Shown: in pieces, positions 932 to 62,450 of the stretch
Layout: each line of letters begins with the position of its first letter
Position numbering within the stretch: the stretch's first letter is position 1
NCBI GenBank assembly: GCA_951406725.2
Contig: OX597821.1
Coordinates: 64,480,001 to 64,544,000, forward strand
From: Octopus vulgaris
Taxonomy: Eukaryota
Direction of reading: 5' to 3'
Length of the DNA stretch: 64,000 nucleotides
Position numbers and translations under genes: made by a program
The notes under the pieces: generated by a model
What the model saw: the letters and a program-made list of their open reading frames with translations, nothing else
Databases searched by the model: none
Told to the model about the DNA's origin: nothing

Positions 932-1290
932 GCTCACATGGTTCCGAGTCCAGTCCCACTGCGTGGCACCTTCGGCAGGTGTCTTCTACTATAGCCTCGA
1001 GCCGACCAAAGCTTGTGAGTGGATTTGGTAGACGAAAACTGAAAGAAGCCCCTCGTATATAATTATATATATATACATATGTGTGTGTGTGTGTTTGTCC
1101 CCCCCCGACATCGCTTGACAACCGATGCTGGCGTTTATGTCCCCGTAACTTAGCGGTTCTGCAAAAGAGACCGATAGAATAAGTACTAGGCTTACAAAAA
1201 ATAAGTCCTGAGGTCGATTTGCTCGACTAAAGGCGGTGCTCAAGCATGGCCTCCGTCAAATGACTGAAACAAATAAAAGAGTAAAAGAGT
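932..1290 (+). mobile_element. SINE family A (5'-truncated), internal (TA)n(TG)n
   Basis: GGTTCCGAGTCCAGTCCCACTGCGTGGCACC...GATTTGGTAGACGAAAACTGAAAGAAGCCC...ATGACTGAAACAAATAAAAGAG; about ten further copies in the window. Confidence 0.9.
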
Positions 1291-1715: not shown

Positions 1716-1780
1716 TATCTTAGAAACAAAATCCAAGAACAGCTTCTGATCTTTAACTGCAATATTTTTATTTCATTTCA

Positions 1781-2190
1781 AGCGGCGAGTTGGCCGAATC
1801 GAATCGTTAGCAGACCAGGCAAAATGCTTAGCGGTATTTCATGTCTTTACGTTCTGAGTTCACATTCCGCCGAGGTCGACTTTGCCTTTCATCCTTTCGG
1901 GGTCGATAAATTAAGTACCAGTTACGCACAGGGGGTCGATGTAATCGACTTAATACCTATGTCTGTCCTTGTTTGTCCCCTCTGTGTTTAGCCCCTTGTG
2001 GGTAATAAAGAAATAGGTATTTCATCTGTCTTTACGTTCTGAGTTCAAATATCGCCGTGATCGGCTTTGCCTTTGATCTATGCGGGGTTGATAAAATAAA
2101 TAGCATTTGAGCACGGAGGTCATTATAAATGACTATCCACCAACCAAGAACTGGCGGGCCTTGAGAGGAAATTTGAAATCAAAACGTTAA
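1781..2190 (+). mobile_element. SINE family B, two nested units
   Basis: GCGGCGAGTTGGC...GAGTTCACATTCCGCCGAGGTCGACTTTGCCTTTCATCCTTTCGGGGTCGATAAATTAAGTACC...GGGTAATAAAGAAATA|GGTATTTC, followed by an older unit. Confidence 0.9.
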
Positions 2191-6013: not shown

Positions 6014-6403
6014 TCATTTATATGAGTAGAAAGTATGTTTCTGCCAGTGTTTACATTTGTATGATTTTTCTATGAGTGTGTTTACAAGGGGAACCTTAGA
6101 GAAGAGAATATCGAAGAGTTCAGAGTTGCAAATGTTACAAAATCTCCTGCCCTTATCAAAAAGAAAGGATACAGACAGTATGAACCAATCTAACTTGAAA
6201 TTTATATTGTTGTCTTTAAGATGCCAAACTAATTTACTTAGCCCTGTACTATGTCTTTTTTTACGATCCCTGAATGTTGAATAATGGTTTGAAATTCTCT
6301 TGGATAACTGGGAAGTGGACGCTCCTATACAGAAGAAGACATCGGTACCGGAAGAAATTCTACACTGGAAAATAGAATTCTTAATCTTAGAATTACTAAA
6401 CAA
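6014..6403 (-). CDS. C-terminal GIY-YIG endonuclease domain of a Penelope-like element (5'-truncated)
   Basis: SIFQCRI...FFCIGAST..LSKRISNHYSTF...STGLSKLVWHLKD...W.IL....CNICNSE matches the pattern of PLE endonucleases. Confidence 0.8.
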   Translation of the reverse strand: MFSNSKIKNSIFQCRISSGTDVFFCIGASTSQLSKRISNHYSTFRDRKKRHSTGLSKLVWHLKDNNINFKLDWFILSVSFLFDKGRRFCNICNSELFDILFSKVPLVNTLIEKSYKCKHWQKHTFYSYK

Positions 6404-6528
6404 AAATTTAATTCTGTTGGGGTTGTCCTCCGAGATCGAAACGAAGTTTTTATTGCTATGATTGTTGTTAATATTATTATTAGCGCCAACAACTACACTA
6501 TTTCTATTATTATTAGTATTATTAATGA

Positions 6529-12213: not shown

Positions 12214-12341
12214 GTGCGCATAATATTTATATATATATACAAAGGTAGAAACTGACAGAGAATTTATCCATATAAATAAATAAATGCACAAGTGCATCGA
12301 CAGGTATTTCACTTCATGCACATATATACACACATAAATAT

Positions 12342-12857
<516 letters not shown>

Positions 12858-14689: not shown

Positions 14690-14905
14690 GTAAATTTGGT
14701 TCAAGACTGACAATTTTGAGAGCAGGACAATAGTCTATTACATCGATCCCAGAGCTCAACTGGAACTTATTTCATTGACCCCGTAAGGATGAACAGATTA
14801 AGTCAACCTCGGTGGATTTTGAATCTAGAAAGTAAAATGCCGGAAGAAATGTGCTTCTAAGTAGTTGTCCAGTGTGCAAACGACTTTGCTAACTCGGCAG
14901 CTTAT
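14690..14905 (-). mobile_element. Old SINE family B copy
   Basis: Diverged CATCGATCCCAG...CTTATTTCATTGACCCCGTAAGGATGAA...AAGTCAACCTCGGTGGATTTTGAA. Confidence 0.7.
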
Positions 14906-15344
14906 GGCTGAGAAATTAATAGCTACACCTGAATTGATTACATTTAAACAACTATAATTTAACTTTGAAGATTATCAGAATATTCAGAAGCTGAAAGGAC
15001 GGAACAAATATTGCAAGTCGTTTTAACCGAACACACCAAGTTCGCCAATTCACTATTATAAGAGTAAGGGTTGTTTTATTGACCTGAATATCTTACACTT
15101 CTATAAATTCGCTATAAAATAAGAATAATAGTTTTTATAGACATAAGGTATGATAGTTGCAAGGGAGGTGAATTGCTGATTATATTTGAATTCAGTATTC
15201 TACTGGTAGTTAGATTTTACTAACACCCAAAAAAGAAAGGCAGATGAATACAGTAAAATGTGAACTGAGAGAGTAAAGCGTTGCAAATAAATATTCCACG
15301 GTATTGAGTGCGATGCGCTAACAGTTATATCAATAATTGGAATA

Positions 15345-16455
15345 TTGGTTTCAAATTTTGGCACAGGGTCAGTAATTTCAGAGGAGTAGGTAAGTCGATT
15401 ACATCGAACCCAGCACTCTACTGGTACTTGTTATACCGACCTGTAAGGATAGAAGGCAAAATCGACCTCGGCTTTATTTGAACAGAGACAAACGAAATAC
15501 ACAAACCATTTTGCCTGGCAAGCTAACAATTCTTTTCTACTCTAGGCACAAGGCTGGAAATTTTGGGGGAGGGGGCCAGCCGATTAGATCGACCACAGTA
15601 CGCAACTGGTGCTTAATCTATCGACACCGAAAGGATGAAAGGCAAAGTCGACCTCGTAAAGACACGAAATACCTACTTCTTTACTACTCACAAGGGGCTA
15701 AACACAGAGAGGACAAACAAGGACAGACAAACAGATTAAGTCGATTATATCGACCCCAGTGTGTACCTGGTACTTATTTAATCGACCCCAAAAGATGAAA
15801 GGCAAAGTCGATCTGGGCAGAATTTGAACACAGAACGTAACAGTAGACGAAATACCGCTAAGCATTTGAACTGGTGTGCTAACGGTTCTTATTTCTTTAC
15901 TGCCCACAAGGGGCTACACACAGAGGGGACAACCAAGGATAGACAAACGGATTAAGTCGTTTATATCGACCCCGCCCCCGAAAGGAATTTAATCGACCTC
16001 CGAGGAATTTGAACTCAGAACGTAGAGGCTGACGAAATACCTATTTCTTTACTACCCACAAGGGGCTAAACACAGAGAGGATAAACAAGGACAGACAAAC
16101 GGATTAAGTCGATTATATCGATCTCAGTGCGTAACTGGTACTTATTTAATTGACCGCGAAAGGATGAAAGGCAAAGTCGACCTCGGCGAAATTTGAACTC
16201 AGAACGTAAAGACAGACGAAATACCTATTTCTTTACTACCCACAAGGGGCTAAACACAGAGAGGACAAACAAGGATAGACAAACAGATTAAGTCGATTAT
16301 ATCGACCCCAGTGCGTAACTGTTACTTAATTTATCGACCCCAAAAGGATGAAAGGCAAAGTCGACTCGGTGGAATTTGAACTCAGAACGTAACGGCAGAC
16401 GAAATACCGCTAAGCATTTCGCCCGGCGTGCTAACAATTGTGCGAGCTCACCACC

Positions 16456-16457
<2 letters not shown>
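15345..16457 (-). mobile_element. Six-unit nested array of SINE family B
   Basis: Single head at 16457; junctions at about 16225, 16041, 15889, 15673 and 15530. Confidence 0.9.
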
Positions 16458-16520
<63 letters not shown>

Positions 16521-19045: not shown

Positions 19046-19411
19046 TAAATGGTTCTGGTTGAATCAATAGATGATCAATACTGCTGATCGATTTAAACTC
19101 CCTGAATGGCTGCAACATGACTTGCATTGAAATTCAAAATGTCTGCCGGCCACTTGTCAGAAATGTTAAAGCGTCTGCCGGATAGAACGCCTTGTGGTCC
19201 TTTGTGTTTTGCCTTCGAATCTCGCCGTTGACAACTTTGCGTTTCATCTAACCGCGATCGATTAAATAATGTCCCAGTAAACTAATGCAATACTTTTCTG
19301 TCTGACTTTCTTTCTTTCTTTTACTTTCTTTATTCCTTCCTTTCTTTCTTTCTTTCTTTCTTTCATTTTTCTTTATTCTTCCTTTCTCTCCTTTTCATCG
19401 TTTGTTCTTTT

Positions 19412-19444
<33 letters not shown>

Positions 19445-19479
19445 TTGTCTGTCTGTCTTTCTGCCTATCTCTCGATCTG

Positions 19480-19712
19480 GCGGTGAGCTGGCAGAAACGT
19501 TTAGCTCGCCGGGCGAAATGCGTAGCCGTATTTCGTCTGCCGTTACGTTCTGAGTTCAAATTCCGCCGAGGTCGACTTTGCCTTTCATCCTTTCGGGGTC
19601 GATAAATTAAGTACCAGTTACGCACTGGGGTTGATGTAATCGACTTAATCCGTTTGTCTGTCCTTGTTTGTCCCCTCTGTGTTTAGCCCCTTGTGGGTAA
19701 TAAAGAGATATA
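19480..19712 (+). mobile_element. Single full-length SINE family B (LINE-tail variant) with 14-bp TSD
   Basis: TSD TATCTCTCGATCTG at 19466-19479 and 19713-19726; lies in a (TATC)n/(TGTC)n tract. Confidence 0.92.
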
Positions 19713-19811
19713 TATCTCTCGATCTGTCTGACTGTCTGTCGGGCTTTCTCACTGTCTCACTCTCTTTCTCTCTCTCCCTCCCTCCATTTCTGTCTGTCTA
19801 TCTGATCTCAG

Positions 19812-19876
<65 letters not shown>

Positions 19877-20094: not shown

Positions 20095-20270
20095 ATGTGG
20101 TTTAGCACGCAGGACAAGATGTTTAGCGGCATTTCCTCCGCCTTTACGTTCTGAATTGAAATTCCATCGAGGTCGTCTTTGCCTTTCATCCTTTCGGAGA
20201 TGAGTATTGGGGCCGATGTAATTAACACTTCCCACAAAAATTTGCTGGCCCAGTGAAAAAATTTGAAACC
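20095..20270 (+). mobile_element. Old SINE family B copy
   Basis: TTAGCACGC...GAAATTCCATCGAGGTCGTCTTTGCCTTTCATCCTTTCGG. Confidence 0.75.
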
Positions 20271-21987: not shown

Positions 21988-22133
21988 TACATTATTTACA
22001 TTCGACGTATATTTGTCCCCTTCTTTGTTGTTAACACAACGTTTCGGCTGATGTACTGTCCAGCCTTCATAAGGTGTCTTGGGGAAATTTCGAACCTGGG
22101 TTCTCATTCCTAAGGCATTTTTCGATGTTGTTG

Positions 22134-22191
<58 letters not shown>

Positions 22192-22285
22192 GATTCAGGT
22201 CACTGCCTGGAATCGAACTCCGAATCTTGGGGTTAAGAGTGCGGGCTACTAACCTCAAGATTCCGAGATCGATTCCAGGCAGTGA

Positions 22286-22355
<70 letters not shown>

Positions 22356-22512
22356 AGCATCAAAAAATAACTTAGGAATGAGAACCTAGGTTCAAAATTT
22401 CCCCAAGACACCTGATGGAGGCTGGAGGGTTAACAACAAACAAGATGAGGACAAACGTCCGTCAAATGTAAATAATGTACATATTTCCTCATCTCTTAAA
22501 TATAGAACTGTA
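21988..22512. mobile_element. Head-to-head pair of tRNA-headed elements with (AAT)n and a hammerhead-like motif
   Basis: ~245-bp inverted arms; GGTTAAGAGTGCGGGCTACTAACC...GAGATCGATTCC head at the centre; hammerhead motif at 22033-22078 on minus. Confidence 0.8.
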
Positions 22513-23249: not shown

Positions 23250-23395
23250 TAATCCTTTCTACTATAGACACGCTGCCTCAAAATTGGGTGGAGGCGGCTT
23301 ATCGCTTACATCGTTCCCAGTGCTCAGTTGCTACGTTATTCATCGACCCCGAAAGGTGAAAGGTGAAGTTGACCTCGTCGGCATTTGAACTAAAG
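23250..23395 (-). mobile_element. Old SINE family B, 3' part
   Basis: ATCGACCCCGAAAGGTGAAAGGTGAAGTTGACCTCGTCGGCATTTGAACT. Confidence 0.75.
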
Positions 23396-23899
23396 AAAGA
23401 CCAGAAATAATAATTGTACTAGCAAGTATAAGTAGAATCGAATATAGTAACAGCCCATGAGCACTTAACCAGTAAGAGCACAGATTTCAGCTGCCAGTGG
23501 GGTGATAAGAATATTCTCATGTATGTGAAACGGTATAAGCTTCTCAAGTTAGATATTGCTGCTGTAATACTGATTATAGTGAATGTGTCCATGGTATGCC
23601 TGTGTTGTGGCGCTGAAGAAGAAGCAATAACTCCTGAAATATGTATACACACCGATCAACTAGTTTTCTATCTTCCATCGCGTTGTTTACAAAGATGTAA
23701 TTGTATACGAAACGACGTAACTGTCAACGCTGACTTTAATTTCAGTAGACAGTCTATAGAGATAATATTAAAAAGTAATTGGATCACTCTGCCAACACAA
23801 GTAGGACACAGTTTTCTCGTAGAAGCCTTTAATATACTTGGTAGAATATTATGGTTGCATAACAAAATATGGTGTCCCTACTAGCAATTAATAAGTAGC

Positions 23900-24272
23900 C
23901 ATGGGAGTGGCTGCGTGAGAAGTAGCTTGCTTACAAACCATATGGTTCCGGGTTCAGTGCCATTGCGTGGCATATTGGGCAAGTGTCTTCTACTATAGCC
24001 TCGGGACGACCAAAGCCTTGTGAATTGATTTGGTAGACGGAAACTGAAAGAAGCCTGTCGTATATGTGTATATATATATATATATGAATGTGCGTGTGTG
24101 TATGTTTGTGTGTCTGTGTTTGTCCCTCCAACGTCGCTTGACAACCGATGCTGGTGTGCTTGCATCCCCGTAACTTAGCGGTTCGGCAAAACAGATCTAT
24201 AGAATAAGTACTAGGCTTGCAAAGATTAAGTCCTGGGGTCGATTTGACTAAAATTTGTAAAAGAGTAAATGA
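23900..24272 (+). mobile_element. SINE family A
   Basis: Match to family A head, body and partly deleted tail. Confidence 0.9.
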
Positions 24273-25290: not shown

Positions 25291-25680
25291 AGGCGCAGAA
25301 GTGGCTGTGTGGTAAGTAGCTTGCTTACCAACCACATGATTCCGGGTTCTGTCCCACTGCGTGGCATCTAGCCTCAGGCCGACCAAAACCTTGTGAGTGG
25401 ATTTGGTAGACGGAAACTGAAAGAAGCCCGTCGTATGTATATGTATGTGTATGTGTGTGTGTATGTTTGTGTGTCTGTATTTGTCCCTCTAGCATTGCTT
25501 GACAACTGATGCTGGTGAGTTTATGTCTCCGTCACCTAGCGGATCGGCAAAAGAGACCGATAGAATAAGTACTATACTTACAAAGAATAAGTCCTGGGGT
25601 CGATTTGCTCGACTAAAGGCAGTGCTCCAGCATGGCCGCAGTCAAATGACTGAAACAAGTAAAAGAGTAAAAGAGAGTAA
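25291..25680 (+). mobile_element. SINE family A, near full length
   Basis: AGGCGCAGAAGTGGCTGTGTGGTAAGTAGCTTGC... through ...GAAACAAGTAAAAGAG. Confidence 0.92.
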
Positions 25681-28736: not shown

Positions 28737-28782
<46 letters not shown>

Positions 28783-30113
28783 GATGGCAAGCTATCAGAA
28801 GCTTTACAGCGTCGGACAAAAAAATTTTCGGACGAAAGCGATTCTGCCAGCTCGCCACATTAAACCAAGTAATAATAAGAAGAAAGGCGAAAGAGTTAAA
28901 ATTAAGGAAAAAGAAACGAAGAGAATATGAATTAATGAAGTAAGGCTTAAAAGACCGAAAAGAAATGCGTAACAAAAACAAAAAAAAAAAAAAAAATGAC
29001 AACATGGAAAATGGAAAAAATAAGGAAGCCAATGAAACAGTATTTGATCGAAAGAGAGATGAAGACAGAAAACGGTTTCTCTGATCTTAATTTTTGTTTC
29101 AACTTGGAGAAAGACACACTCCGCCTTTCATTTGCTACCTTTGCTGCCAGCACCAAGCTGGAGATCTGTCAGTTCTGATTGCAATACTGAAATTCAGCAA
29201 TGATGCAGGCTAGGCAATTTAATTAGAGACGACGCTAACTTCTTCCACGCAATTTAGCATTTCAGCAATGTATTTGTTACAATTTCAGACCGTTGAAGAA
29301 TGAAAAATGAAAGTTGAAGTGAAAAACGAAATGAAAGCTGAAAACCGGAGGAAAAAAAACCCCAGCACCAAAAACACCTCACATGACTATAGTTAAATGA
29401 ATTCTAGACACGTTGTTGTTGCGGAGATTACTGTGTATTGATAGTATCACTTATGAAGTAACACATTGCTGTCTGGTATACCATGATATAAATCTATTTT
29501 ATCAAACACATTCACTTACTGTACACCGAACGCCACTTTTTCTTGTGTAGCACTAATTGCAAGTAAATATTGACTGCAAGTACTTGATAAAAGAATGTTG
29601 TATACATATTACACAACTTGGTTCTACATAACTTTGGTTATTATTTCTAGATTGCAATTCTAGTATAAAAGTACATCATAATACTTGAATTGGCGATAAC
29701 ATACAAGTAACATATCTTGTCATTCTTAGTGTATCAAAATACATTCAGTTGAAGAAAAAAATACTTTGTTCTTCAGCTCGAGTTTCTTGTTTACAAAGAA
29801 ACAAAAATACAATGCATCATTATTTTCTCTTTTTCTGATATTCCGTAAATTATAATTATTACAATGACATGCAATTGTATTTAAAGTGAGAAAAATATGT
29901 GCCCTCCCGCACTGAGTATGCTAAATTATATAAAAATATCTTTGCAACGTTATTCCTCTTTTTGCGTTTTGTGGTTATTACAGGCAATTCCGCCAAGCAT
30001 TTGCTAATTACAGTTATTTGAAGGAAAACAAATTGTGCTAAAATATTAATGTATGCTAATTATAACAAGTTTAAAAGAAGGCATTGAGGTGTCAGAACCG
30101 CTATCACGCCGAA

Positions 30114-30520
30114 GGCGGTGAGCTGGCAGACACGTTAGCACGCCGGGAGAAATGCATAGACGTATTTCGTTTGCCGTTACATTCTGAGTTCAAATTCCGC
30201 CGAGGTCGACTTTACCTTTCATCCTTTCGGGGTCGATTAAATAAGTACCAGTTACGCACAGGGGTCGATGTAATCGACTTAATCCCTTTGTCTGTCCTTG
30301 TTTGTCCCTCTATGTTTAGCCCCTTGTGGGCAATAAAGAAATAAGAAACGTTAGCACGCCGGGCGAAATGCTTAGCGGTATTTCGTCTCTCCTTACGTTT
30401 TGAGTTCAAATTCTGCCGAGGTCGACTTTCCCTTTCACCCTTTCAGGGTCGATAAATTAAGTACCAGTTAAGTACTGGGCTCGATCTAATCGACTGCCTT
30501 GTACCTAGCGTAGAAAAGAA
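30114..30520 (+). mobile_element. Two-unit nested SINE family B with decayed 20-bp TSD
   Basis: AGAACCGCTATCACGCCGAA (30094-30113) vs AGAACCATTATCATGCCGAA (30517-30536); junction GGGCAATAAAGAAATA|AGAAACGTTAGC. Confidence 0.9.
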
Positions 30521-30544
30521 CCATTATCATGCCGAATAAAATTC

Positions 30545-30720
30545 TTAGCAGCATTCTTTTTCGTCTTTACGTTCTGAGTTCAAATTCCACCGTGATCAAT
30601 TTTGTCTTCCAATCATTTTGTAGTTGATAAAAGAACAACCAACACCGGTTTCATACCGGCGTTAATGTAATCGACTTAGCCCCCCACCCAAATTGCTGGC
30701 TCTTTGACAACAGTTGAAAT
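30545..30720 (+). mobile_element. Old SINE family B copy
   Basis: CGTCTTTACGTTCTGAGTTCAAATTCCACCG...ATGTAATCGACTTAGCCCC. Confidence 0.7.
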
Positions 30721-36973: not shown

Positions 36974-37020
36974 ACATTAGCAACAACTACAGCAACAGCA
37001 GCAGAAATAGAATCAATATT

Positions 37021-37612
37021 CTTTTCTACCCTAGGCACAAGGCCCAAAACTTCTGCGGAAGGTCAGTCGATTAGATCAATTCCAGTACACAACTGGTACA
37101 TAATTTATCTACCCCGAAAGGATGAAGGCAATGTCGACCTTGGTGGAATTTGAACTCAGATCGTAAAGACAGACGAAATACCTATTTCTTTACTACCCAC
37201 AAGGGGCTAAACACAGAGATGACAAACAAGGACGGACAAAAGGATTAAGTCGATTATATCGATCCTAGTGCGTAACTGGTACTTATTTAATCGACCCCGA
37301 AAGGATGAAAGGCAAAGTCGATCTCGGCGGAACGGGAACTCAGAACGTAGCGGCAGACGAAATACCTATTTCTTTACTACCCACAAGGGGCTAAACAAAG
37401 AGAGGACAAACAAGGAGAGACGAATGGATTAAGTCGATTACGTCAACCCCAGTGAGTAACTGGTACTTAATTTACCGAGCTCGAAAGGATGAAAGGCGAA
37501 GTCGACCTCGGCGGAATTTGAACTCAGAACGTAACCGCAGATGAAATACGTCTATGCATTTCGCCCGGCGTGCTAACGCCTCTACCAGCTCGCCCTGCGA
37601 GCTCGCCGCCTT
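37021..37612 (-). mobile_element. Three-unit nested SINE family B with perfect 18-bp TSD
   Basis: AGAAATAGAATCAATATT at 37003-37020 and 37613-37630. Confidence 0.93.
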
Positions 37613-39170
37613 AGAAATAGAATCAATATTGTTATGCCAACTTTGTGGGAACCCCTACGTAGTCGCTTCCTCCTTCATATAAAAAACCCCAGCCAAATTT
37701 GACTCAAATTGCTCCTTACCATCTAAAACAAAAATATTGCACATGGCTTACTGTAGTCCTAAATAGATATATACCTGGGATTATATATTCTCCATTTCGG
37801 CCTCGACCAAACTTGCAAATGGCTTTTGGTCAAATGTTATATGGAACCAACTAAAGTAAATACCAGCAATATCCAAACAAGACATTATCAATAGCATTAA
37901 ATGTAAATTCCCTTCAAGGGCAGCGGCCCAAAGAACGGTGTGGTGGACTATGTATAGAGAAGCAGATTAAAGCTCAATATGTATATATTCAGTGATAAAA
38001 CAGTTACTCTCACCTGGTAAACTGGGCAATGATTGTGTGAAAATTGAGTAAAATTTAAAATAAGCAAATTTAATAGGTTATAAGAGCCGGTTACTTCTTA
38101 CAACATGTTACATGTTGAAACATCAGTGTCTCAGAGTGTCGTGTGCTAATGAAATGGATATGTTGAACACACTATTATCGTAATGAGAAGAAGTTATTCT
38201 CCTAAGACAAACACTGCAGCGCCCAGCATATTTTGCCTCTGGACCTGCCTGAACGTTTAAGAATAAATATACAAATATTCGTTCTAGTCATAAGAGTCTC
38301 TTGCAGAGAAGCCAACGTTGAGCCATACATTGAGCAGGTAGAGATATGTAGCACTAGGTTATAGATTCAACTGTAACAAATCATGTTGTTCCCTGGCAGC
38401 CTTATTGCTTTACCGATTTTAGAGGGATTGAATGGATGGAGTCCTATCCTCTGCGATAATATCATTTAAACCACATCATATACGTAAACGCAGGAACGCA
38501 ATTTGGTTGGGAGTGTGAGCAAACCCAATTTTTCAGAAACAGTTTTCAAAACATTTTCATTGTCCTCTCCAACGCCAAAATTTAATGGTATGCGCTTGCA
38601 CGTCTTGTTTCCGAGTCTATGATCAAACATATACTTCTTATAATAATAATAATAATATTTTACATTAGAAAAAGACGACAAATTCATAGGACTAGTGGAT
38701 GTGGAACAAGTGCAAACGTAAAATCGAAACCGGTTCGATTTGAACTAGAACAGTAGATATATCGTAGTTATATAGTGAAACATGTTTATTCCGCTGCTTT
38801 ACATATCCTACCTCTTAACGGTCTTAAAAGCAATGATGTATTTCATAGGCGCCATAAATTAGTGTCTTTGTTTTTCAGACAGAGGCGTAGTCATTTAAAT
38901 CAATCTCAGCATCGGATCCCAGAGGGAAAACATAAAAATGAACCCCCAGTGGGATTTGAACTCATTACGTAAACAAATGAAACTGAATACTTTAAAGTCG
39001 TATAGTTCATTGTATTTTCATGTATATCTTATTAACCATTTCCAAATAATATATTATATAAGACACTGGAATATTTACAACTCAAAAATATTGATCTGAG
39101 CAGATGTTTAGAATTCTTTTCACAAGACATTTAAGTTAATAATTTTACACTCATTATTGTGCTTATTTTA

Positions 39171-39395
39171 AGGCGACGAGCTGGCAGAAGCGTTAGCACA
39201 CTGGGCGAAATACTAAACGATTTTTTTTGTCTGCCGTTACGTTCTGAGTTCAAATTCCGCCGAGGTCGACTTTGCTTTTCATCCATCCATTCAGGGTCGC
39301 TAAATTAAGTACCAATTGCATATTGGAGTCGATCTAATCGACTACCCCCGCTTCCCCAAAGTTTCGGGCCTTGTACCTAGAGCAGAAAAGAATTA
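39171..39395 (+). mobile_element. Monomeric SINE family B (AGAAAAGAAT tail variant)
   Basis: Full head and body; ends GGGCCTTGTACCTAGAGCAGAAAAGAAT. Confidence 0.9.
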
Positions 39396-41295: not shown

Positions 41296-41400
41296 ACTAT
41301 ATATTAGATCTATAGTGGTTTAATCCATTAAAATGCTGTTCTAGATTCTGTATCAACTACCAGAATGCAAAATACTCTTCAGTAATATGATCCAACGACC

Positions 41401-41628
41401 GGCGAGCTTGGCAGAAACGTTAGCACGCCGGGCGAAATGCTTAGCGGTATTTCGTCTGCGTTACGTTGTGAGTTCAAATTCCGCCGAGGTCGACTTTGCC
41501 TTTCATCCTTTTGGGGTCGATAAATTAAGTACCAGTTACGCACTGGGGTCGATGTAATCGACTTAATACCTATGTCTGTCCTTGTTTGTCCGCTCTGTGT
41601 TTAGCCTCTTGTGGGTAATAAAGAAATA
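41401..41628 (+). mobile_element. SINE family B (LINE-tail variant), full length
   Basis: Head GGCGAGCTTGGCAGAAACG through GGGTAATAAAGAAATA. Confidence 0.92.
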
Positions 41629-42924: not shown

Positions 42925-43001
42925 GTATGTATTTATATCCTTAAAATCCTTAAAAGTGTTTTAGCCCGAAAGCCGCGGCCATGCTGGGGCACCATATATA
43001 T

Positions 43002-43380
43002 ACTTTTTTATTTGTTTCAGTCATTTAACTGCAGCCATAGTGGAGCACCGCCTTAAATGGTTTTAGTCGAAGAAATCGACCCCAGGACTTATTCTTTGTA
43101 TGCCTAGTAGAGATTCTATCGGTCTCTTTTACCGAAACGCTAATTTACGGGGACATAAACACACCAGCATCGGTTGTCAAGCGATGTTTGGGTACAAACA
43201 CAGACACACAAGCTCATATATATATATATATATACCTATATACGACGGGCTTCTTTCAGTTTCCGTCTACCAAATCCAGTCACAAGGCTTTGGTCGTCCA
43301 AAGCTATAGTAGAAGACACTTGCCCAAGTTGCCACGCAGTGGGACTGAACCCGGAACCATGTGGTTGGTAAGCAAGTTGC
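43002..43380 (-). mobile_element. SINE family A
   Basis: Reverse match to family A. Confidence 0.9.
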
Positions 43381-43946: not shown

Positions 43947-44046
43947 NNNNNNNNNNNNNNNNNNNNNNNNNNNNNNNNNNNNNNNNNNNNNNNNNNNNNN
44001 NNNNNNNNNNNNNNNNNNNNNNNNNNNNNNNNNNNNNNNNNNNNNN
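43947..44046. other. Assembly gap (100 N)
   Basis: Run of N. Confidence 1.
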
Positions 44047-51097: not shown

Positions 51098-51403
51098 CAC
51101 ATATTAGTTATATCATAGAATTTTAATCTGTGAATAGTGTGTTCTTGTGTGTTAGCCAGTCCTCCTTTGTTTGTACCATGTGACTTTCCAGTTCAATGGA
51201 ACATTTGAGAGAAAGGGAGTGGAGAAAGTGAGAGAATTTGTAAGGAAAGAATATGAAGGTAAGCTTGAGACATATACGTATGTAAAACCATGAACAATGA
51301 AGATGCATTATCAATGGTTTATTTAGCTTACACGCGTTTCGAACTGTCTAGTACAACACAAGCATTGAATATTGCGGTATCTATCTATTTATCTATCTAT
51401 CTG

Positions 51404-51490
<87 letters not shown>

Positions 51491-52598
51491 GCCGAAGAAG
51501 GGCGAATGGCACCGCGAGTGTCGCGTTGCTCTCAAGCAACTCTGCCGTCCTGGATCGACCTTGAGTGACTTCAACACAACCAAAGCATTCTATAGGGGTT
51601 TAGTGGAGGGGAGGTACGACGACGAGCTCGGGGCGAACCTGGACGTCGACGAGGAGTACCTGACCCGCCTGTTCAGGACGACTTTCGGGCCAGGGCCCAT
51701 GGACAACTTCCAGAGATCCCTGGCCTGGCAGTGCTACCGAAAAGCGCTACCCGTTCGGGATAAGCTCTACAGACACGGCTCGAGAAACACGGGGCCGACC
51801 TGCCCGAGATGCGGTCAGAGCGACGAAACCGTTCTGCACGCACTCGTGCAGTGTCCAACAATTTCCGACCTGTGGGCTTGTGTCGAACAACTGCTGTCAC
51901 GTGTGGGACGAGTCGGTTTATCAGCTGAGTCTATCGTTAATATTGTCACGCCTCCCTCCTTCAAACGGGAAGGAAGAGCTATTTTCATCATCCTTGTGGC
52001 TGTGGCGAAGGAATGTATCTGGTGGACGCGTCTGAAAGGATTGGAGACAAACACTTTCCTCTCTGGTCAATCTCTCATCAACTTCTTCAAGTACCACTTG
52101 AAAAGGAAAGTGAGAGTAGAGAGGCAAGTTTTGTCTAGCGAATGTTTTAAAAAAAGATGGGTGAATGTAGCAAGAATGGCACGTATGAATGACGAAGCCA
52201 CTTTGAGCATGATCCTATGAACCCAGAAATTGAAAACAGAGAGTTGCTTATTTGCAAAAAAAAAAAAAAAAAGAAATATAACATGTGACTCCATTGACCG
52301 AGGTTACCGTGGTCTTTTCTGTAGGCTTTTCTTTCCACGGGTAAACCTCACCTGTCCTCCCTTTTACACTTCATATTGACATTTCTGTGATAATGATCCC
52401 TGTTGATCAATTTTTTTTTTTTCCTCTCCCCTTTTTTTTTAACCCCCCCTTTTTTTGTCCTCTTTCTCTCCTTTTACGATCCATTTTGATCGAAACTCCC
52501 CCTTTTTTTTTTTTTTTTTTTTTTAACCTTCAAAAGAAAAGCTCTACCTTGTAATTTGTTCTATCTGTGTGCAGCCCTGTGTGGCTAATAAAGAAACA

Positions 52599-52600
<2 letters not shown>
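51491..52600 (+). mobile_element. 5'-truncated Tx1/L1-clade LINE inserted in (TATC)n
   Basis: Uninterrupted ORF2 C-terminus, pyrimidine-rich 3' UTR, AATAAAGAAAC end; (TATC)n directly on both sides. Confidence 0.88.
51492..52220 (+). CDS. LINE ORF2 C-terminus with RT-associated zinc-binding domain (zf-RVT-like), partial
   Basis: LAWQCYRKALPVRDKL...CPRCGQSDETVLHALVQCP...LW...AKECIWWTR. The N-terminal SIYL repeats of the listed ORF are microsatellite. Confidence 0.88.
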   Translation, partial: PKKGEWHRECRVALKQLCRPGSTLSDFNTTKAFYRGLVEGRYDDELGANLDVDEEYLTRLFRTTFGPGPMDNFQRSLAWQCYRKALPVRDKLYRHGSRNTGPTCPRCGQSDETVLHALVQCPTISDLWACVEQLLSRVGRVGLSAESIVNIVTPPSFKREGRAIFIILVAVAKECIWWTRLKGLETNTFLSGQSLINFFKYHLKRKVRVERQVLSSECFKKRWVNVARMARMNDEATLSMIL

Positions 52601-52663
<63 letters not shown>

Positions 52664-52772
52664 GTCTACCTATCCACCTATCTATCTATCTATCTACATA
52701 TCTACCTATCTATATGTCTATCTATCTATCTATTTACTTATCTACCTATTTATCTATCATCTACATATCTAC

Positions 52773-52803
<31 letters not shown>

Positions 52804-52812
52804 CCTATCTAC

Positions 52813-52851
<39 letters not shown>

Positions 52852-52956
52852 CCTATCTACCTATCTATCTACCTATCCACCTATCTATCTACCTATCTAC
52901 CTATCTACCTACCTACCTATCTACCTACTTACCTACCTACCTACCTACCTACCTAC

Positions 52957-53006
<50 letters not shown>

Positions 53007-53030
53007 GTCTATCTATCTGTCGATCTATCT
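52600..53030. repeat. (TATC/TACC)n tract; its left part is 51378-51490
   Basis: Directly visible. Confidence 0.95.
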
Positions 53031-53539
53031 ACGAACCATTCTGTTACTTAATCACTTAAAAAATTTATGTGAAGATATATAAATTTTCATCGAGCAGTGT
53101 AGAAGAGATATAGCTATGTCAAGTAATAGCAAATTAGCCAAGTTTTTAATGCAGTTATTAGGAGAGAAATGTCTCGAAATGGAAGCAGAATATCATAATG
53201 CATTATTGGGAAAGAGAATTTCGTTGCAGTGTGTTATCAGGATATCTTCAGAGACCACAAATGATTGATAAAAAAGAAATTCATCTAATTGTTAAAAACA
53301 TTAAGAGACTATAAAGAATTAAAATACAGTTGCATAGAAAATACATAAAATGTCATTAATGGCACTTTGTTTAAAAATAACAGAAGCCATTTTAATATGC
53401 TTTTCTTTGTTCGTAGTTCGTTTGCGATATTGACTAAGGCACCGCCTAAACGAATGAGTAGCACGGGAGCATGGTAGGATAGGCCAGGATTCTAAAAAGG
53501 CAATATTTTGTGATTATGCGACTGATATCCCGACTATTG

Positions 53540-59034: not shown

Positions 59035-59595
59035 GTTTTCTTGCAAATGGCAGGCTCCCAAGGAATATTATGTCCAATTCATTAAGGAGGAATCAGAGCA
59101 GATGCCAAAACTTATAGGCCTATCTCTCTCATTAGCAAAGTTATTGAACGGATAGAAACTAATTGCATTCCTTGAAGAAAACGATTTACTGAGTGATAAC
59201 CAGGTAGGAGCTGCCCGACCCAGCTCCTACAGTACTACGACTGGGTGTTGAAGCCTCTTAAATTTAGATATAATATAGCTTGACTTTGCAAAAGCTTTTG
59301 ATAAAGTGGTTCGTGTATGATATGCCATACTCTGCGTGATCCTGGCATAGCTGGAAAACTTGGAGAGTGGCTACAAGACTTTCTGAAAGATCGAAGTCAG
59401 GCAGTAGTGGTCAATGGAGCCACCTCATAGAAAATACAAATAGCGAGTGGTGTTCTATAAAGCACTGTCTAGAACCACTGCTTTTCATAGTGGCCCTCTC
59501 AGATATGCCCTCACCTGCCCGGATACCCACCTTTGCTAGCTACGCAGACGATGTGAATGTCTCGCAAAAGATACAGAATCCCAGTGATGTTGTAC
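59035..59595 (+). pseudogene. CR1/L2-group reverse transcriptase fragment
   Basis: Frameshifted motifs YRPISL, LDFAKAFDKV, W..DFLKDRSQ.VVVNG, LEPLLFIV, SYADD. Confidence 0.85.
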
Positions 59596-59761
59596 GGGGC
59601 AATAAAGAAATGAGAAGGTGAAAATGAGCGTAGCGACATGAAACGCCCTTATTTACCAAATGCCACGTATGAGAGAGGCTCTCAATAATAAGAGTGTAGC
59701 AAAACAGTGGTGCCCCAGCATGGCCAAAGTTTTGAACTGAAACTAATCGAATATATATATC

Positions 59762-60456: not shown

Positions 60457-60825
60457 TACTCTCTTTTACCCTTTTACTTGTTTCAGTCATTTGATAGCTG
60501 CCATGCTGGAGCACCGCCTTTAGTCGAGCAAATCGACCCCAGGACTTATTCTTTTTAAGCCTAGTACTTATTATATCGGCCTCTTTTGCCAAACAGCTAA
60601 GTTACGGGAACGTAAACACACCAGCATCGGTTGTCAAGCGATGCTGTGGGGGACAAATACACACACACATCTCTATATATATACATACGACGGCAGTTTC
60701 CGTCTACCAAATCCACTCAGTAGGCTTTGGCCGGCCCGAGGCTATAGTAGAAGACACTTGCCCAAGGTGCCACGCAGTGGGACTGAAACCGGAACTATGT
60801 GGTTGGTAAGCAAGCTACTTACTAC
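60457..60825 (-). mobile_element. SINE family A
   Basis: Reverse match to family A. Confidence 0.9.
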
Positions 60826-61692: not shown

Positions 61693-62077
61693 AATCAAGA
61701 AAATCATGTGAGATATAAAATCTCTAAAAGAGATCAGCGCAGTAGTTGTACTGACGAGTAATATTCGTTGCCACTTTACCTTGGCTGTCCGTTCGAACGG
61801 ACTCTACTACGATTTTTGAAGCCAAGACGACATCCGATCTACATGGTTAATGCTGTAAAGCTGCATCCGATAAATTCCGAGCATGGATGATTCAGCAGAT
61901 TTTCAGAACTGTGGGTTTTATTCTCTCCCTTGTTCATGTTTAGCCCCCGACTACAATTTTCCTTTCTTACATGCATACATACACACTCACACACACAAAC
62001 ACACATATATATATTGTGTGCACACACGCACACAATCATTTATATACATACAAATATACACAAGATACTTAAATATA

Positions 62078-62270
62078 TTCTTTTACTTGTTTCAGTCATT
62101 TGACTGCGGCCATGCTGGAGCACCGTCTTTAGTCGAGCAAATAAACCCCAGGACTTATTCTTTGTAAGCCTAGTACTTATTATATCGGCCTTTTTTGCCG
62201 AACCGCTATGTTACGGGGACGTAAATACACTAGTATTGATGGTCAAGCAATGTTGGGGGTACAAACACAG

Positions 62271-62305
<35 letters not shown>

Positions 62306-62450
62306 CATACGACGGGCTTCTTTCAGTTTCCGTGTGCCAAATCCACTCACAAGGTTTTGGTCGGCCCGAGGCTATAGTAAAAGACACTTACCCAAGGTGC
62401 TTACCACACAGCCCCACCTGCACCTATGCCAAATAGCCAATCCTGCGCCT
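62078..62450 (-). mobile_element. SINE family A (head partly deleted)
   Basis: Reverse match to family A. Confidence 0.88.

What the first reader, a model, noticed from the sequence alone, without database searches (positions are those of the whole stretch)
19466..19726. Family B SINE inserted in the same kind of target as its putative partner LINE
Seen: a complete monomer with TSD TATCTCTCGATCTG in a (TATC)n/(TGTC)n tract. The 3' junction TAATAAAGAGATA-TATATCTC resembles the LINE junction TAATAAAGAAACA-TATCTATC. Site 2 in the SINE head (TATTTCGTCTGTC) loosely resembles such repeats. Inference: the SINE uses a microsatellite-directed endonuclease, which could also explain self-targeting.
Basis: partly seen in the sequence, partly recalled or inferred. 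Interest (0 to 1): 0.7.

Follow-up and report, generated by a model that had tools for sequence, protein, structure and literature searches.

The report
Octopus SINE sharing a LINE's microsatellite target
A short jumping element carries the same tail as a nearby long retrotransposon, and both sit in TATC-type repeats on the same strand and in the same phase, so this copy was likely inserted by that retrotransposon's repeat-seeking enzyme; most sister copies instead sit in the heads of related short elements, at sites that do not look like the repeat.

Summary
A 231-nt tRNA-type SINE (19480-19710) is flanked by an exact 14-nt direct repeat inside a degenerate TATC/TGTC tract. Its last 49 nt match the 3' end of a 5'-truncated L1/Tx1-group LINE (51491-52598) that lies between pure (TATC)n runs: 78-85% identity in 10 of 10 family-B tails, and no match in 6 of 6 sister-family tails. 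SINE and LINE share strand and repeat phase at both junctions, and only 0.4-2.3% of window positions are as TATC-like. Trans-mobilisation of this copy by a TATC-preferring LINE is therefore likely, but it rests on one SINE copy and one LINE copy. Only 1 of 10 family-B 3' ends (1 of 6 loci) is TATC-like, 8 of 10 run into a SINE head at two fixed sites, and neither site is more TATC-like than background. Self-targeting needs another cause: homology-driven insertion, an inherited dimer junction, or a sister LINE. Precedents exist (Kibi/Koshi; SINEU/Tx1-Mar). I found no tRNA-type SINE with a Tx1-like tail in the papers searched. Verdict: new variant of a known kind, interest 0.45.

The parts
19295..19465 (+). 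Left host tract: (TTTC)n, then (TATC)7 at 19414-19441, then degenerate TGTC units, in phase with the insertion point
19466..19479 (+). Left copy of the target-site duplication (13-14 nt; the last G may belong to the SINE)
19480..19710 (+). Family-B SINE monomer, 3.1% from the family majority in its body (the lowest of 10 copies, tied with one other)
19489..19499 (+). A-box-like motif; self-insertion site 1 lies within it (19492/19493 in this copy)
   Evidence: sequence; box consensus recalled; site. ARAGORN and Rfam find no tRNA
19510..19539 (+). 13-bp predicted hairpin with a 4-nt loop at 19523-19526; self-insertion site 2 lies at the 3' edge of the loop
   Evidence: whole head z -2.05, 5 of 200 shuffles as stable
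19554..19564 (+). B-box-like motif
   Evidence: sequence; box consensus recalled
19662..19710 (+). LINE-related tail, 39 of 49 aligned nt identical to 52547-52598, with a weak predicted stem-loop
19711..19712 (+). Two extra nt (TA) between tail and duplication; centre of a 16-nt perfect palindrome at 19704-19719
19713..19726 (+). Right copy of the target-site duplication
19727..19873 (+). Right host tract: degenerate TGTC units passing into (TC)n
51378..51490 (+). (TATC)n run abutting the truncated 5' end of the LINE
51491..52598 (+). 5'-truncated L1/Tx1-group LINE: open 242-aa ORF2 C-terminus with zf-RVT (51492-52220), T-rich 3' UTR, and a terminal 52 nt homologous to the family-B tail
52599..53031 (+). 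(TATC)n run abutting the LINE 3' end
1780..2182 (+). Composite: diverged head, B body and tail, site-2 junction, rest of an old family-C copy
15342..16458 (-). Array of four B units (three site-2 junctions and one site-1 junction), then A, then C
30077..30720 (+). Nested composite: C head fragment, B, site-1 junction, A, rest of C; imperfect 17-20-nt duplication of the C head (30094-30113 / 30517-30536)
37003..37633 (-). Array B-B-A with two site-2 junctions, the whole flanked by an 18-nt exact direct repeat
41400..41628 (+). Second family-B monomer; no duplication found; the flank is not TATC-like but starts with the same three bases as site 2

Best explanation
The 19480 copy is a tRNA-type SINE that carries the 3'-terminal 49 nt of an L1/Tx1-group LINE and was likely inserted by that LINE's protein, or a close sister's, at a TATC-phase nick in a degenerate microsatellite, while the family's frequent position inside other SINE heads likely arises by a different route. 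Shown: the shared tail, the 13-14-nt duplication, the same strand and phase as the LINE at both junctions, endonuclease + RT + zinc-knuckle architecture in full-length relatives of the LINE, and 8 of 10 tails joined to SINE heads at two fixed sites that are not TATC-like. Inferred steps: (1) Pol III makes the SINE RNA. (2) The LINE ORF2 protein binds the shared tail. (3) Its endonuclease nicks the GATA strand at a repeat-unit boundary. (4) Priming uses TA microhomology, with slippage adding 2 nt. (5) The second nick falls 13 nt (4k+1) away. For the composites I favour insertion into genomic SINE heads helped by homology between donor and host, with later copying of whole dimers; this part is less certain.
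For: Tail: 38-41 identical nt of 48-49 in 10 of 10 B tails. Local score 52-54 for 2 of 2 B tails tested, reached by 0 of 2000 null pieces, and mapped to the last 52 nt of the LINE; 6 of 6 A and C tails score at background. This is within the 35-61 bp, 72-95% range reported for bivalve SINE/LINE pairs (PMC11481361, section 13). Site: 0.44%, 2.05% and 2.32% of about 117,400 unmasked positions (both strands) score as high, by window size; 0.64% lie within 30 nt of 5 or more perfect TATC; the chance of at least one such hit is 1.3% for 2 insertions, 3.8% for 6 and 6.2% for 10. Phase: both 3' junctions resume at TATC and both 5' junctions read ATCT then G. LINE: TATC on both sides, including the truncated 5' end, which argues for a target and not a tail; zf-RVT; full-length relatives with PF03372 + PF00078 + PF13966, closest solved structure LINE-1 ORF2p (E 1e-72, against 6e-29 for R2). 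Tx1 families that prefer (TC)n, (TTC)n, (TTCC)n or (TTTC)n are published (PMC4494074). DNA-level nesting: at 1780 the head is 29% diverged (20 of 69) against 6% (10 of 163) in the body, Fisher p 1e-5; a duplicated C-head segment flanks the 30111-30516 insert (17 of 20 nt); 4 of 4 composite loci begin with the AAG start also seen in the A monomer at 39170, and 0 of 2 B monomers do.
Against: One SINE copy and one LINE copy; no second copy of the LINE lies in the window, and no outside copy of either tail was found. The thresholds were chosen after seeing the site, and microsatellites cover 11.5% of the window. The other B monomer (41400) is not TATC-like (6 of 16). The tail differs by about 20% from this LINE while B bodies differ 3-12% from their majority, so the real partner may be a sister family. 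The tail stem-loop has no two-sided compensatory change (0 of 11 pairs) and the LINE tail alone does not fold better than shuffles (z +0.40). Heads are more variable than bodies in all 6 full-length units, and the 19480 monomer itself shows 15% against 4% (p 0.004), which weakens the head-age argument at 1780. The LINE's 5' boundary is inferred from a protein alignment, so its phase is uncertain by a base or two.
Confidence: 0.55

Rival explanations
1. Chance landing. Family B is moved by a related L1/Tx1-group LINE without TATC preference, or with another target, and this copy fell into a pyrimidine-rich tract in a microsatellite-rich genome.
For: 1 of 10 tails and 1 of 2 monomers are TATC-like. 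The chance for at least one of 10 is about 6% by the proximity criterion. The duplication holds one perfect TATC only. The tail is about 20% from this LINE.
Against: Strand and both junction phases match the LINE's, roughly a further 1 in 8 by chance (my estimate, allowing for the 2-nt ambiguity). Counting only the 2 non-self insertions gives 1.3%.
Confidence: 0.25
2. One reading: one microsatellite-directed endonuclease cuts (TATC)n and also site 2 of the SINE head because site 2 mimics the repeat.
For: The 19711 flank aligns to site 2 better than 96% of random positions. Crocodilian Tx1-Mar and SINEU use two target regions with no recognisable similarity (PMC4494074, section 16), so one lineage can serve unlike sites.
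Against: Site 2 scores 9-10 of 28 and site 1 scores 8 of 28 against in-phase (TATC)n, at or below the window median of 11; on the downstream side alone the six site-2 junctions score 6-9 of 16, reached by 15-77% of positions. Family A, which lacks the LINE-like tail, also ends at site 1 of a C head in 2 loci.
Confidence: 0.12
3. On the composites (compatible with the best explanation for the 19480 copy): the repeated junctions are inherited, not re-made. One ancestral B-plus-head junction spread as a read-through dimer RNA, and by unequal exchange or gene conversion in the shared body.
For: B has no run of four T on the sense strand in 4 of 6 first units, so Pol III could read through. The B-B-A array has one outer 18-nt duplication. 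All 6 array units carry a tail variant absent from the 4 other copies (column 240). The 41400 monomer carries the first three bases of site 2 after its tail. Unequal recombination is the published proposal for SINE arrays (PMC10702118 and PMC11481361, passages).
Against: Units within an array are no closer to each other (0.08-0.18) than to units of the other array (0.08-0.18), and the tree is a star, so recent local duplication is unlikely. Site 2 is followed by B, A or old C, and there is a second fixed site.
Confidence: 0.35
4. On the composites: a sister Tx1-type LINE with the same tail has an endonuclease aimed at SINE heads, and it makes most B insertions.
For: Two base-exact sites in 8 of 10 tails. 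Tx1 families aimed at other repeats are known (Tx1-Mar, Tx1-9_AMi; PMC4494074). The tail is about 20% from the TATC LINE.
Against: No such LINE copy lies in the window. Family A also sits at site 1 without this tail.
Confidence: 0.25
5. The 52547-52598 segment is a truncated old B copy lying next to the LINE, not the LINE's own end.
For: Only one LINE copy is available, so its true end could not be confirmed.
Against: The segment is about 20% from all 10 B tails, which average 88% column identity including it. It is continuous with a T-rich UTR, holds an AATAAA, and no duplication or repeat separates it from the LINE.
Confidence: 0.07

Closest known systems
SINEU with Tx1-Mar, crocodilians (PMC4494074; passages and sections 13-16 read)
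   Same: A SINE inferred to use a target-preferring Tx1 LINE from a shared target; sequential tandem insertions; two unlike target regions inside another repeat.
   Different: SINEU has a U1/U2 snRNA head and its target is a Mariner transposon; in the sections read the link rests on shared target, age and 5' heads. Here the head is tRNA-type, the link is a shared 3' tail, and the targets are a microsatellite and SINE heads.
Kibi, Koshi and crocodilian (TTCC)n/(TTTC)n Tx1 families (as described in PMC4494074; the 2004 source paper seen only as a citation)
   Same: An L1/Tx1-group LINE embedded in a pyrimidine-rich microsatellite.
   Different: The unit here is TATC; a search for TATC + microsatellite + Tx1 + retrotransposon gave 0 papers. 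No partner SINE is described for these families in the sections read. Preference here rests on one copy.
SINE/LINE pairs with a common 3' tail (PMC3747384, passages and Table 1; PMC11481361, section 13)
   Same: Length and identity of the shared tail fall in the published range.
   Different: The 2013 review counts only 3 SINEs with L1-clade tails, in maize/sorghum and Chlamydomonas, and its table lists no animal one. The bivalve partners are CR1, CR1-Zenon, L2 and Nimb, and 'Tx1' occurs 0 times in that paper.
Octopus tRNA-derived SINEs OR1/OR2 (Ohshima and Okada 1994; seen only as citations in PMC4824008 and PMC4758252)
   Same: tRNA-type SINEs of octopus; families A, B or C here may be among them.
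   Different: A LINE-derived tail or target preference is not mentioned in the citing passages.
SINE tandem arrays of squamates and of the blood clam (PMC10702118, PMC11481361; passages read)
   Same: Arrays that start with a full head and go on with units lacking it.
   Different: Here the units keep the whole LINE-like tail, are heterogeneous, mix three families and join at two fixed head positions.

Membership tests
tRNA-type SINE (SINE2) | Short, non-coding, interspersed in many copies | tested here: met
   10 family-B 3' ends at 6 loci in 64 kb; no ORF of 120 aa or more over the copy
tRNA-type SINE (SINE2) | Target-site duplication | tested here: met
   Exact 14 nt for this copy; none found for the 41400 copy
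tRNA-type SINE (SINE2) | tRNA-derived head with A and B boxes | tested here: inconclusive
   Box-like motifs seen by eye against a recalled consensus; ARAGORN finds 0 genes and Rfam no tRNA match
tRNA-type SINE (SINE2) | Pol III transcription | not testable with these tools
   needs RNA data
SINE/LINE pair with a common tail | 3'-terminal homology between SINE and LINE | tested here: met
   78-85% over 48-49 nt in 10 of 10 B tails; 0 of 2000 null pieces; 0 of 6 A/C tails
SINE/LINE pair with a common tail | Conserved tail stem-loop with compensatory changes | tested here: inconclusive
   11 predicted pairs, 0 with two-sided change, 3 with one-sided change; LINE tail z +0.40
SINE/LINE pair with a common tail | Mobilisation in trans through the tail | not testable with these tools
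   needs a retrotransposition assay
L1 group of non-LTR retrotransposons (the LINE) | ORF2 with N-terminal APE endonuclease, RT and C-terminal zinc knuckle | tested here: met
   zf-RVT in the window copy; RT + zf-RVT in 58-67% relatives; all three domains in full-length relatives about 35% identical to the window fragment; best PDB match LINE-1 ORF2p. The window copy itself has lost endonuclease and RT.
Tx1 clade (the LINE) | RT phylogeny within Tx1 | not testable with these tools
   No named Tx1 reference among the listed hits. Tx1-like motifs are recalled; a weak zinc knuckle (E 0.0018, below cut-off) in the ORF1 of relative L001 fits.
Microsatellite-specific Tx1 (Kibi/Koshi type) | More than 20% of copies flanked by the target (criterion in PMC4494074) | tested here: inconclusive
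   LINE: 1 of 1 copy
Microsatellite-targeted SINE family | More than 20% of copies flanked by the target | tested here: not met
   1 of 10 3' ends, 1 of 6 loci; 1 of 2 if self-associated copies are left out; small sample
MetaSINE | Meta-domain directly after the tRNA-like head | tested here: inconclusive
   No likeness seen by eye to the two bivalve MetaSINE alignments in part 1 of 4 of the supplement; not aligned; the cuttlefish member was not seen
CORE-SINE / Ceph-SINE / octopus OR1-OR2 | Conserved central domain | not testable with these tools
   no repeat library or reference sequences available

The most novel reading that the evidence does not exclude
Octopods carry a tRNA-type SINE that captured the 3' tail of a site-specific Tx1-type LINE and now has two addresses: (TATC)n microsatellites, inherited from the LINE's endonuclease, and two base-exact sites in the promoter heads of its own and sister SINE families. 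At those sites each new copy takes over a host's head by homology and builds arrays. This would be a SINE that parasitises SINE promoters, and a natural case of retargeting a LINE enzyme by the passenger RNA.
Probability: 0.25. Interest if true: 0.72.

Novelty: new variant of a known kind. Interest (0 to 1): 0.45.

Why it matters
Animal SINEs with a sequence tail from an L1/Tx1-group LINE appear to be rare: the 2013 survey lists three L1-tail pairs, none animal. Such a pair makes it testable whether Tx1-type proteins recognise their RNA by a specific 3' end and pass their target preference to a passenger. A TATC-seeking LINE would also link retrotransposition to the very high microsatellite content of this kind of genome (11.5% of this window). 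If the insertions in SINE heads are independent events, they would help explain how SINE multimers and tail exchanges between families arise. The claim from this window alone is modest: one SINE copy and one LINE copy.

Tried and rejected
No outside copies of the tail: a degenerate 22-nt tail pattern that hits 9 places in the window gave 0 hits in genome contigs; the SINE gave no match in plasmids or phages. The second genome-contig scan returned 3 overlapping loci of one contig with a 36%-identical relative; it shares no tail with the window LINE or SINE, has no microsatellite at its junction and no Rfam match there, so it says nothing on TATC preference. Three protein searches and a cluster look-up gave no named Tx1 reference. 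The two-sided LINE score (16 of 28) is discarded because my left flank was one base out of phase; the downstream score (16 of 16) stands. Local tandem duplication as the source of the arrays was rejected as a recent event. (TATC)n as a LINE-made tail was judged unlikely because it also abuts the truncated 5' end. Tail covariation was uninformative. The octopus genome paper PMC4795812 is not held. The supplement of PMC13282606 was listed but not read and its repeat library may already hold these families. No structure or complex prediction was run, as none bears on the claim.

Full report
Setting. The window is AT-rich, repeat-rich eukaryotic DNA; microsatellites cover 11.5% of it. The named protein relatives of the LINE fragment come from Argonauta hians (58% identity over 99% of the query) and Octopus bimaculoides (83% over 19%), so an octopod source is inferred.

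The observation. The 14-mer occurs exactly twice in 64 kb, at 19466 and 19713, and cannot be extended. Its last base may belong to the SINE, so the duplication is 13-14 nt. Between the copies lie a full B monomer (19480-19710), 3.1% from the family majority, and two extra bases. The flanks read as one in-phase degenerate TNTC tract, with (TATC)7 ending 24 nt before the duplication. The duplication holds one perfect TATC.

The last 49 nt of B align to the last 52 nt of the LINE at 51491-52598. The score is 56 against a maximum of 41 in 2000 random window pieces, and identity is 78-85% in 10 of 10 B tails. Six of six A and C tails score at background. Published bivalve SINE/LINE pairs share 35-61 bp at 72-95% (PMC11481361, section 13). 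A stem-loop is predicted in the tail but has no two-sided compensatory change, and the LINE tail does not fold better than shuffles.

The LINE. It is 5'-truncated, keeps an open 242-aa ORF2 end with zf-RVT, and is the only clear copy in the window. Relatives at 58-67% add the RT. Full-length relatives, about 35% identical to the window fragment, add an APE endonuclease, and their best solved relative is LINE-1 ORF2p (E 1e-72, against 6e-29 for R2). That shows the L1 group. Tx1 proper is my reading from recalled motifs and a weak zinc knuckle in a relative's ORF1; no named reference was available for a tree. (TATC)n abuts both ends, including the truncated one, which fits a target better than a tail.

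Is the SINE's site more than chance? Of about 117,400 unmasked positions on both strands, 2.3%, 2.0% and 0.44% match in-phase (TATC)n as well, for 28-, 40- and 80-nt windows, and 0.64% lie within 30 nt of five or more perfect units. The chance of at least one such hit is 1.3% for 2 insertions, 3.8% for 6 loci and 6.2% for 10 tails. The criteria were set after seeing the site. Strand and phase add weight: both elements resume at TATC on the 3' side, and both 5' junctions read ATCT then G, which fits a 13-nt (4k+1) stagger. The LINE's 5' boundary is inferred from the protein alignment and could be off by a base or two. I judge trans-insertion by a TATC-preferring enzyme likely for this copy, not shown.

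The family does not follow. Of 10 B 3' ends, 6 continue at site 2 of a SINE head, 2 at site 1, 1 is this copy and 1 (41628) is neither. By locus, 4 of 6 are composites. Against in-phase (TATC)n, site 2 scores 9-10 of 28 and site 1 scores 8 of 28, while the window median is 11. On the downstream side alone, the 19710 junction scores 13 of 16 (0.8% of positions), the LINE 16 of 16, and the other nine 4-9 of 16 (15-99%). The direct likeness of the 19711 flank to site 2 is marginal (3.9% of 20,000 random positions). Family A lacks the LINE-like tail yet also ends at site 1 of a C head in two loci. Microsatellite mimicry therefore does not explain self-targeting.

What the composites show. Several features point to insertion into genomic copies. 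At 1780 the head is 29% diverged and the B body 6% (p 1e-5), and the unit continues into an old C copy. At 30077 a 17-of-20-nt duplication of a C head flanks the insert. The 37003-37633 array keeps a head stub and one outer 18-nt duplication. All 4 composite loci start with the AAG seen in the A monomer, and neither B monomer does. Against this, heads are more variable than bodies in all 6 full-length units, including the 19480 monomer (p 0.004). Units within an array are no closer than units between arrays, which argues against recent local duplication. Other features favour inheritance of a junction: a tail variant shared by all 6 array units and none of the 4 other copies, no four-T run in 4 of 6 first units, and the first three bases of site 2 after the 41400 tail. 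Site 2 lies at the edge of the loop of a 13-bp predicted hairpin, which could favour nicking or template switching. Homology-assisted insertion, inherited dimers and a sister LINE aimed at SINE heads cannot be separated with this window.

Mechanism. Inferred: Pol III transcript; binding of the shared tail by LINE ORF2 protein; a nick on the GATA strand at a unit boundary; priming through TA microhomology with 2 nt of slippage; a second nick 13 nt away. The steps follow the established target-primed reverse transcription model (general knowledge). None was tested here.

Comparison with the literature. Kibi, Koshi and crocodilian Tx1 families prefer (TC)n, (TTC)n, (TTCC)n or (TTTC)n, and SINEU shares the Mariner target of Tx1-Mar, with tandem insertions and two unlike target regions (PMC4494074; passages and sections 13-16). 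So both a microsatellite-seeking Tx1 and a SINE that inherits a Tx1 target are known. A 2013 review found only 3 SINEs with L1-clade tails, none animal (PMC3747384; passages and part 1 of the tables). The bivalve survey does not mention Tx1. An O. vulgaris annotation lists 13 recently active L1-Tx1 families and 893 unclassified SINE families without pairing them in the text I saw (PMC13282606; part 1 of 3 and passages; supplement not read). Passages only were read of PMC4758252, PMC5786205, PMC10702118, PMC3272025 and PMC9115989; of PMC4824008, passages, section 9 and part 1 of 4 of the supplement. Nine searches showed, in their listings, no report of an octopus SINE with a Tx1-like tail or of a TATC-directed Tx1. 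Subscription papers, Repbase and Dfam were not searchable and may already hold these families; OR1 and OR2 could not be compared.

Verdict. Observation confirmed; interpretation partly supported; new variant of a known kind; interest 0.45. The solid result is the B tail shared with an L1/Tx1-group LINE. The TATC link is likely but rests on single copies. The more unusual feature is the fixed-site association of B with SINE heads, which the TATC model does not explain.

Noticed in passing
window 19704-19719: The 3' junction is a perfect 16-nt palindrome, made so by the one base at which this copy's tail end departs from the family; it may reflect fold-back priming or later quasi-palindrome correction, or chance around a TA run.
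   Followed up: partly
window 39170-39392, 37018-37181, 30344-30520, 15528-15676 (A); 2016-2182, 15342-15531, 30519-30720, 14690-14900, 20095-20262, 23260-23400 (C-like): Two further SINE families share the head and body of B but have other tails, not related to the LINE here. Their duplications or flanks often start with AAT/ATT, and one composite head abuts (ATT)n, which suggests another partner LINE.
   Followed up: partly
window 15528-15531 and 30517-30522: Family-A tails also end at site 1 of a C head, with a short microhomology, so head-targeting is not limited to family B.
   Followed up: partly
L001 194-10689 (contig CAXXMW010000012.1): A contig filed in a bacterial MAG holds a head-to-tail array, period about 6.55 kb, of a two-ORF L1/Tx1-group element 36% identical to the window LINE fragment: eukaryotic contamination, with an arrangement typical of site-specific elements. 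P0004 is a similar protein filed under a bacterial name.
   Followed up: partly
window 28781-28862: Two SINE head fragments face each other as an inverted repeat, directly after (ATT)n.
   Followed up: no
window 22060-22430: A long inverted-repeat element with internal (TTA)n and (AAT)n arms around a palindromic core, possibly a MITE.
   Followed up: no
window 19150-19290: A very diverged SINE-like remnant (71% over 73 nt to the B body) lies directly upstream of the microsatellite tract that holds the 19480 copy.
   Followed up: no
window 935-1290, 12340-12840, 23920-24250, 25300-25680, 43000-43376, 60460-60820, 62070-62400: Another abundant interspersed repeat family of about 350 nt, 78-88% between copies, unrelated to A, B and C.
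   Followed up: no
window 6014-6520 (-) and 59300-59620 (+): Two degraded coding remnants that look by eye like other retroelements (Penelope-like and CR1/L2-like; labels recalled); Pfam gave no significant match for the first, the second was not scanned.
   Followed up: partly
window 43947-44046: A 100-N assembly gap.
   Followed up: no
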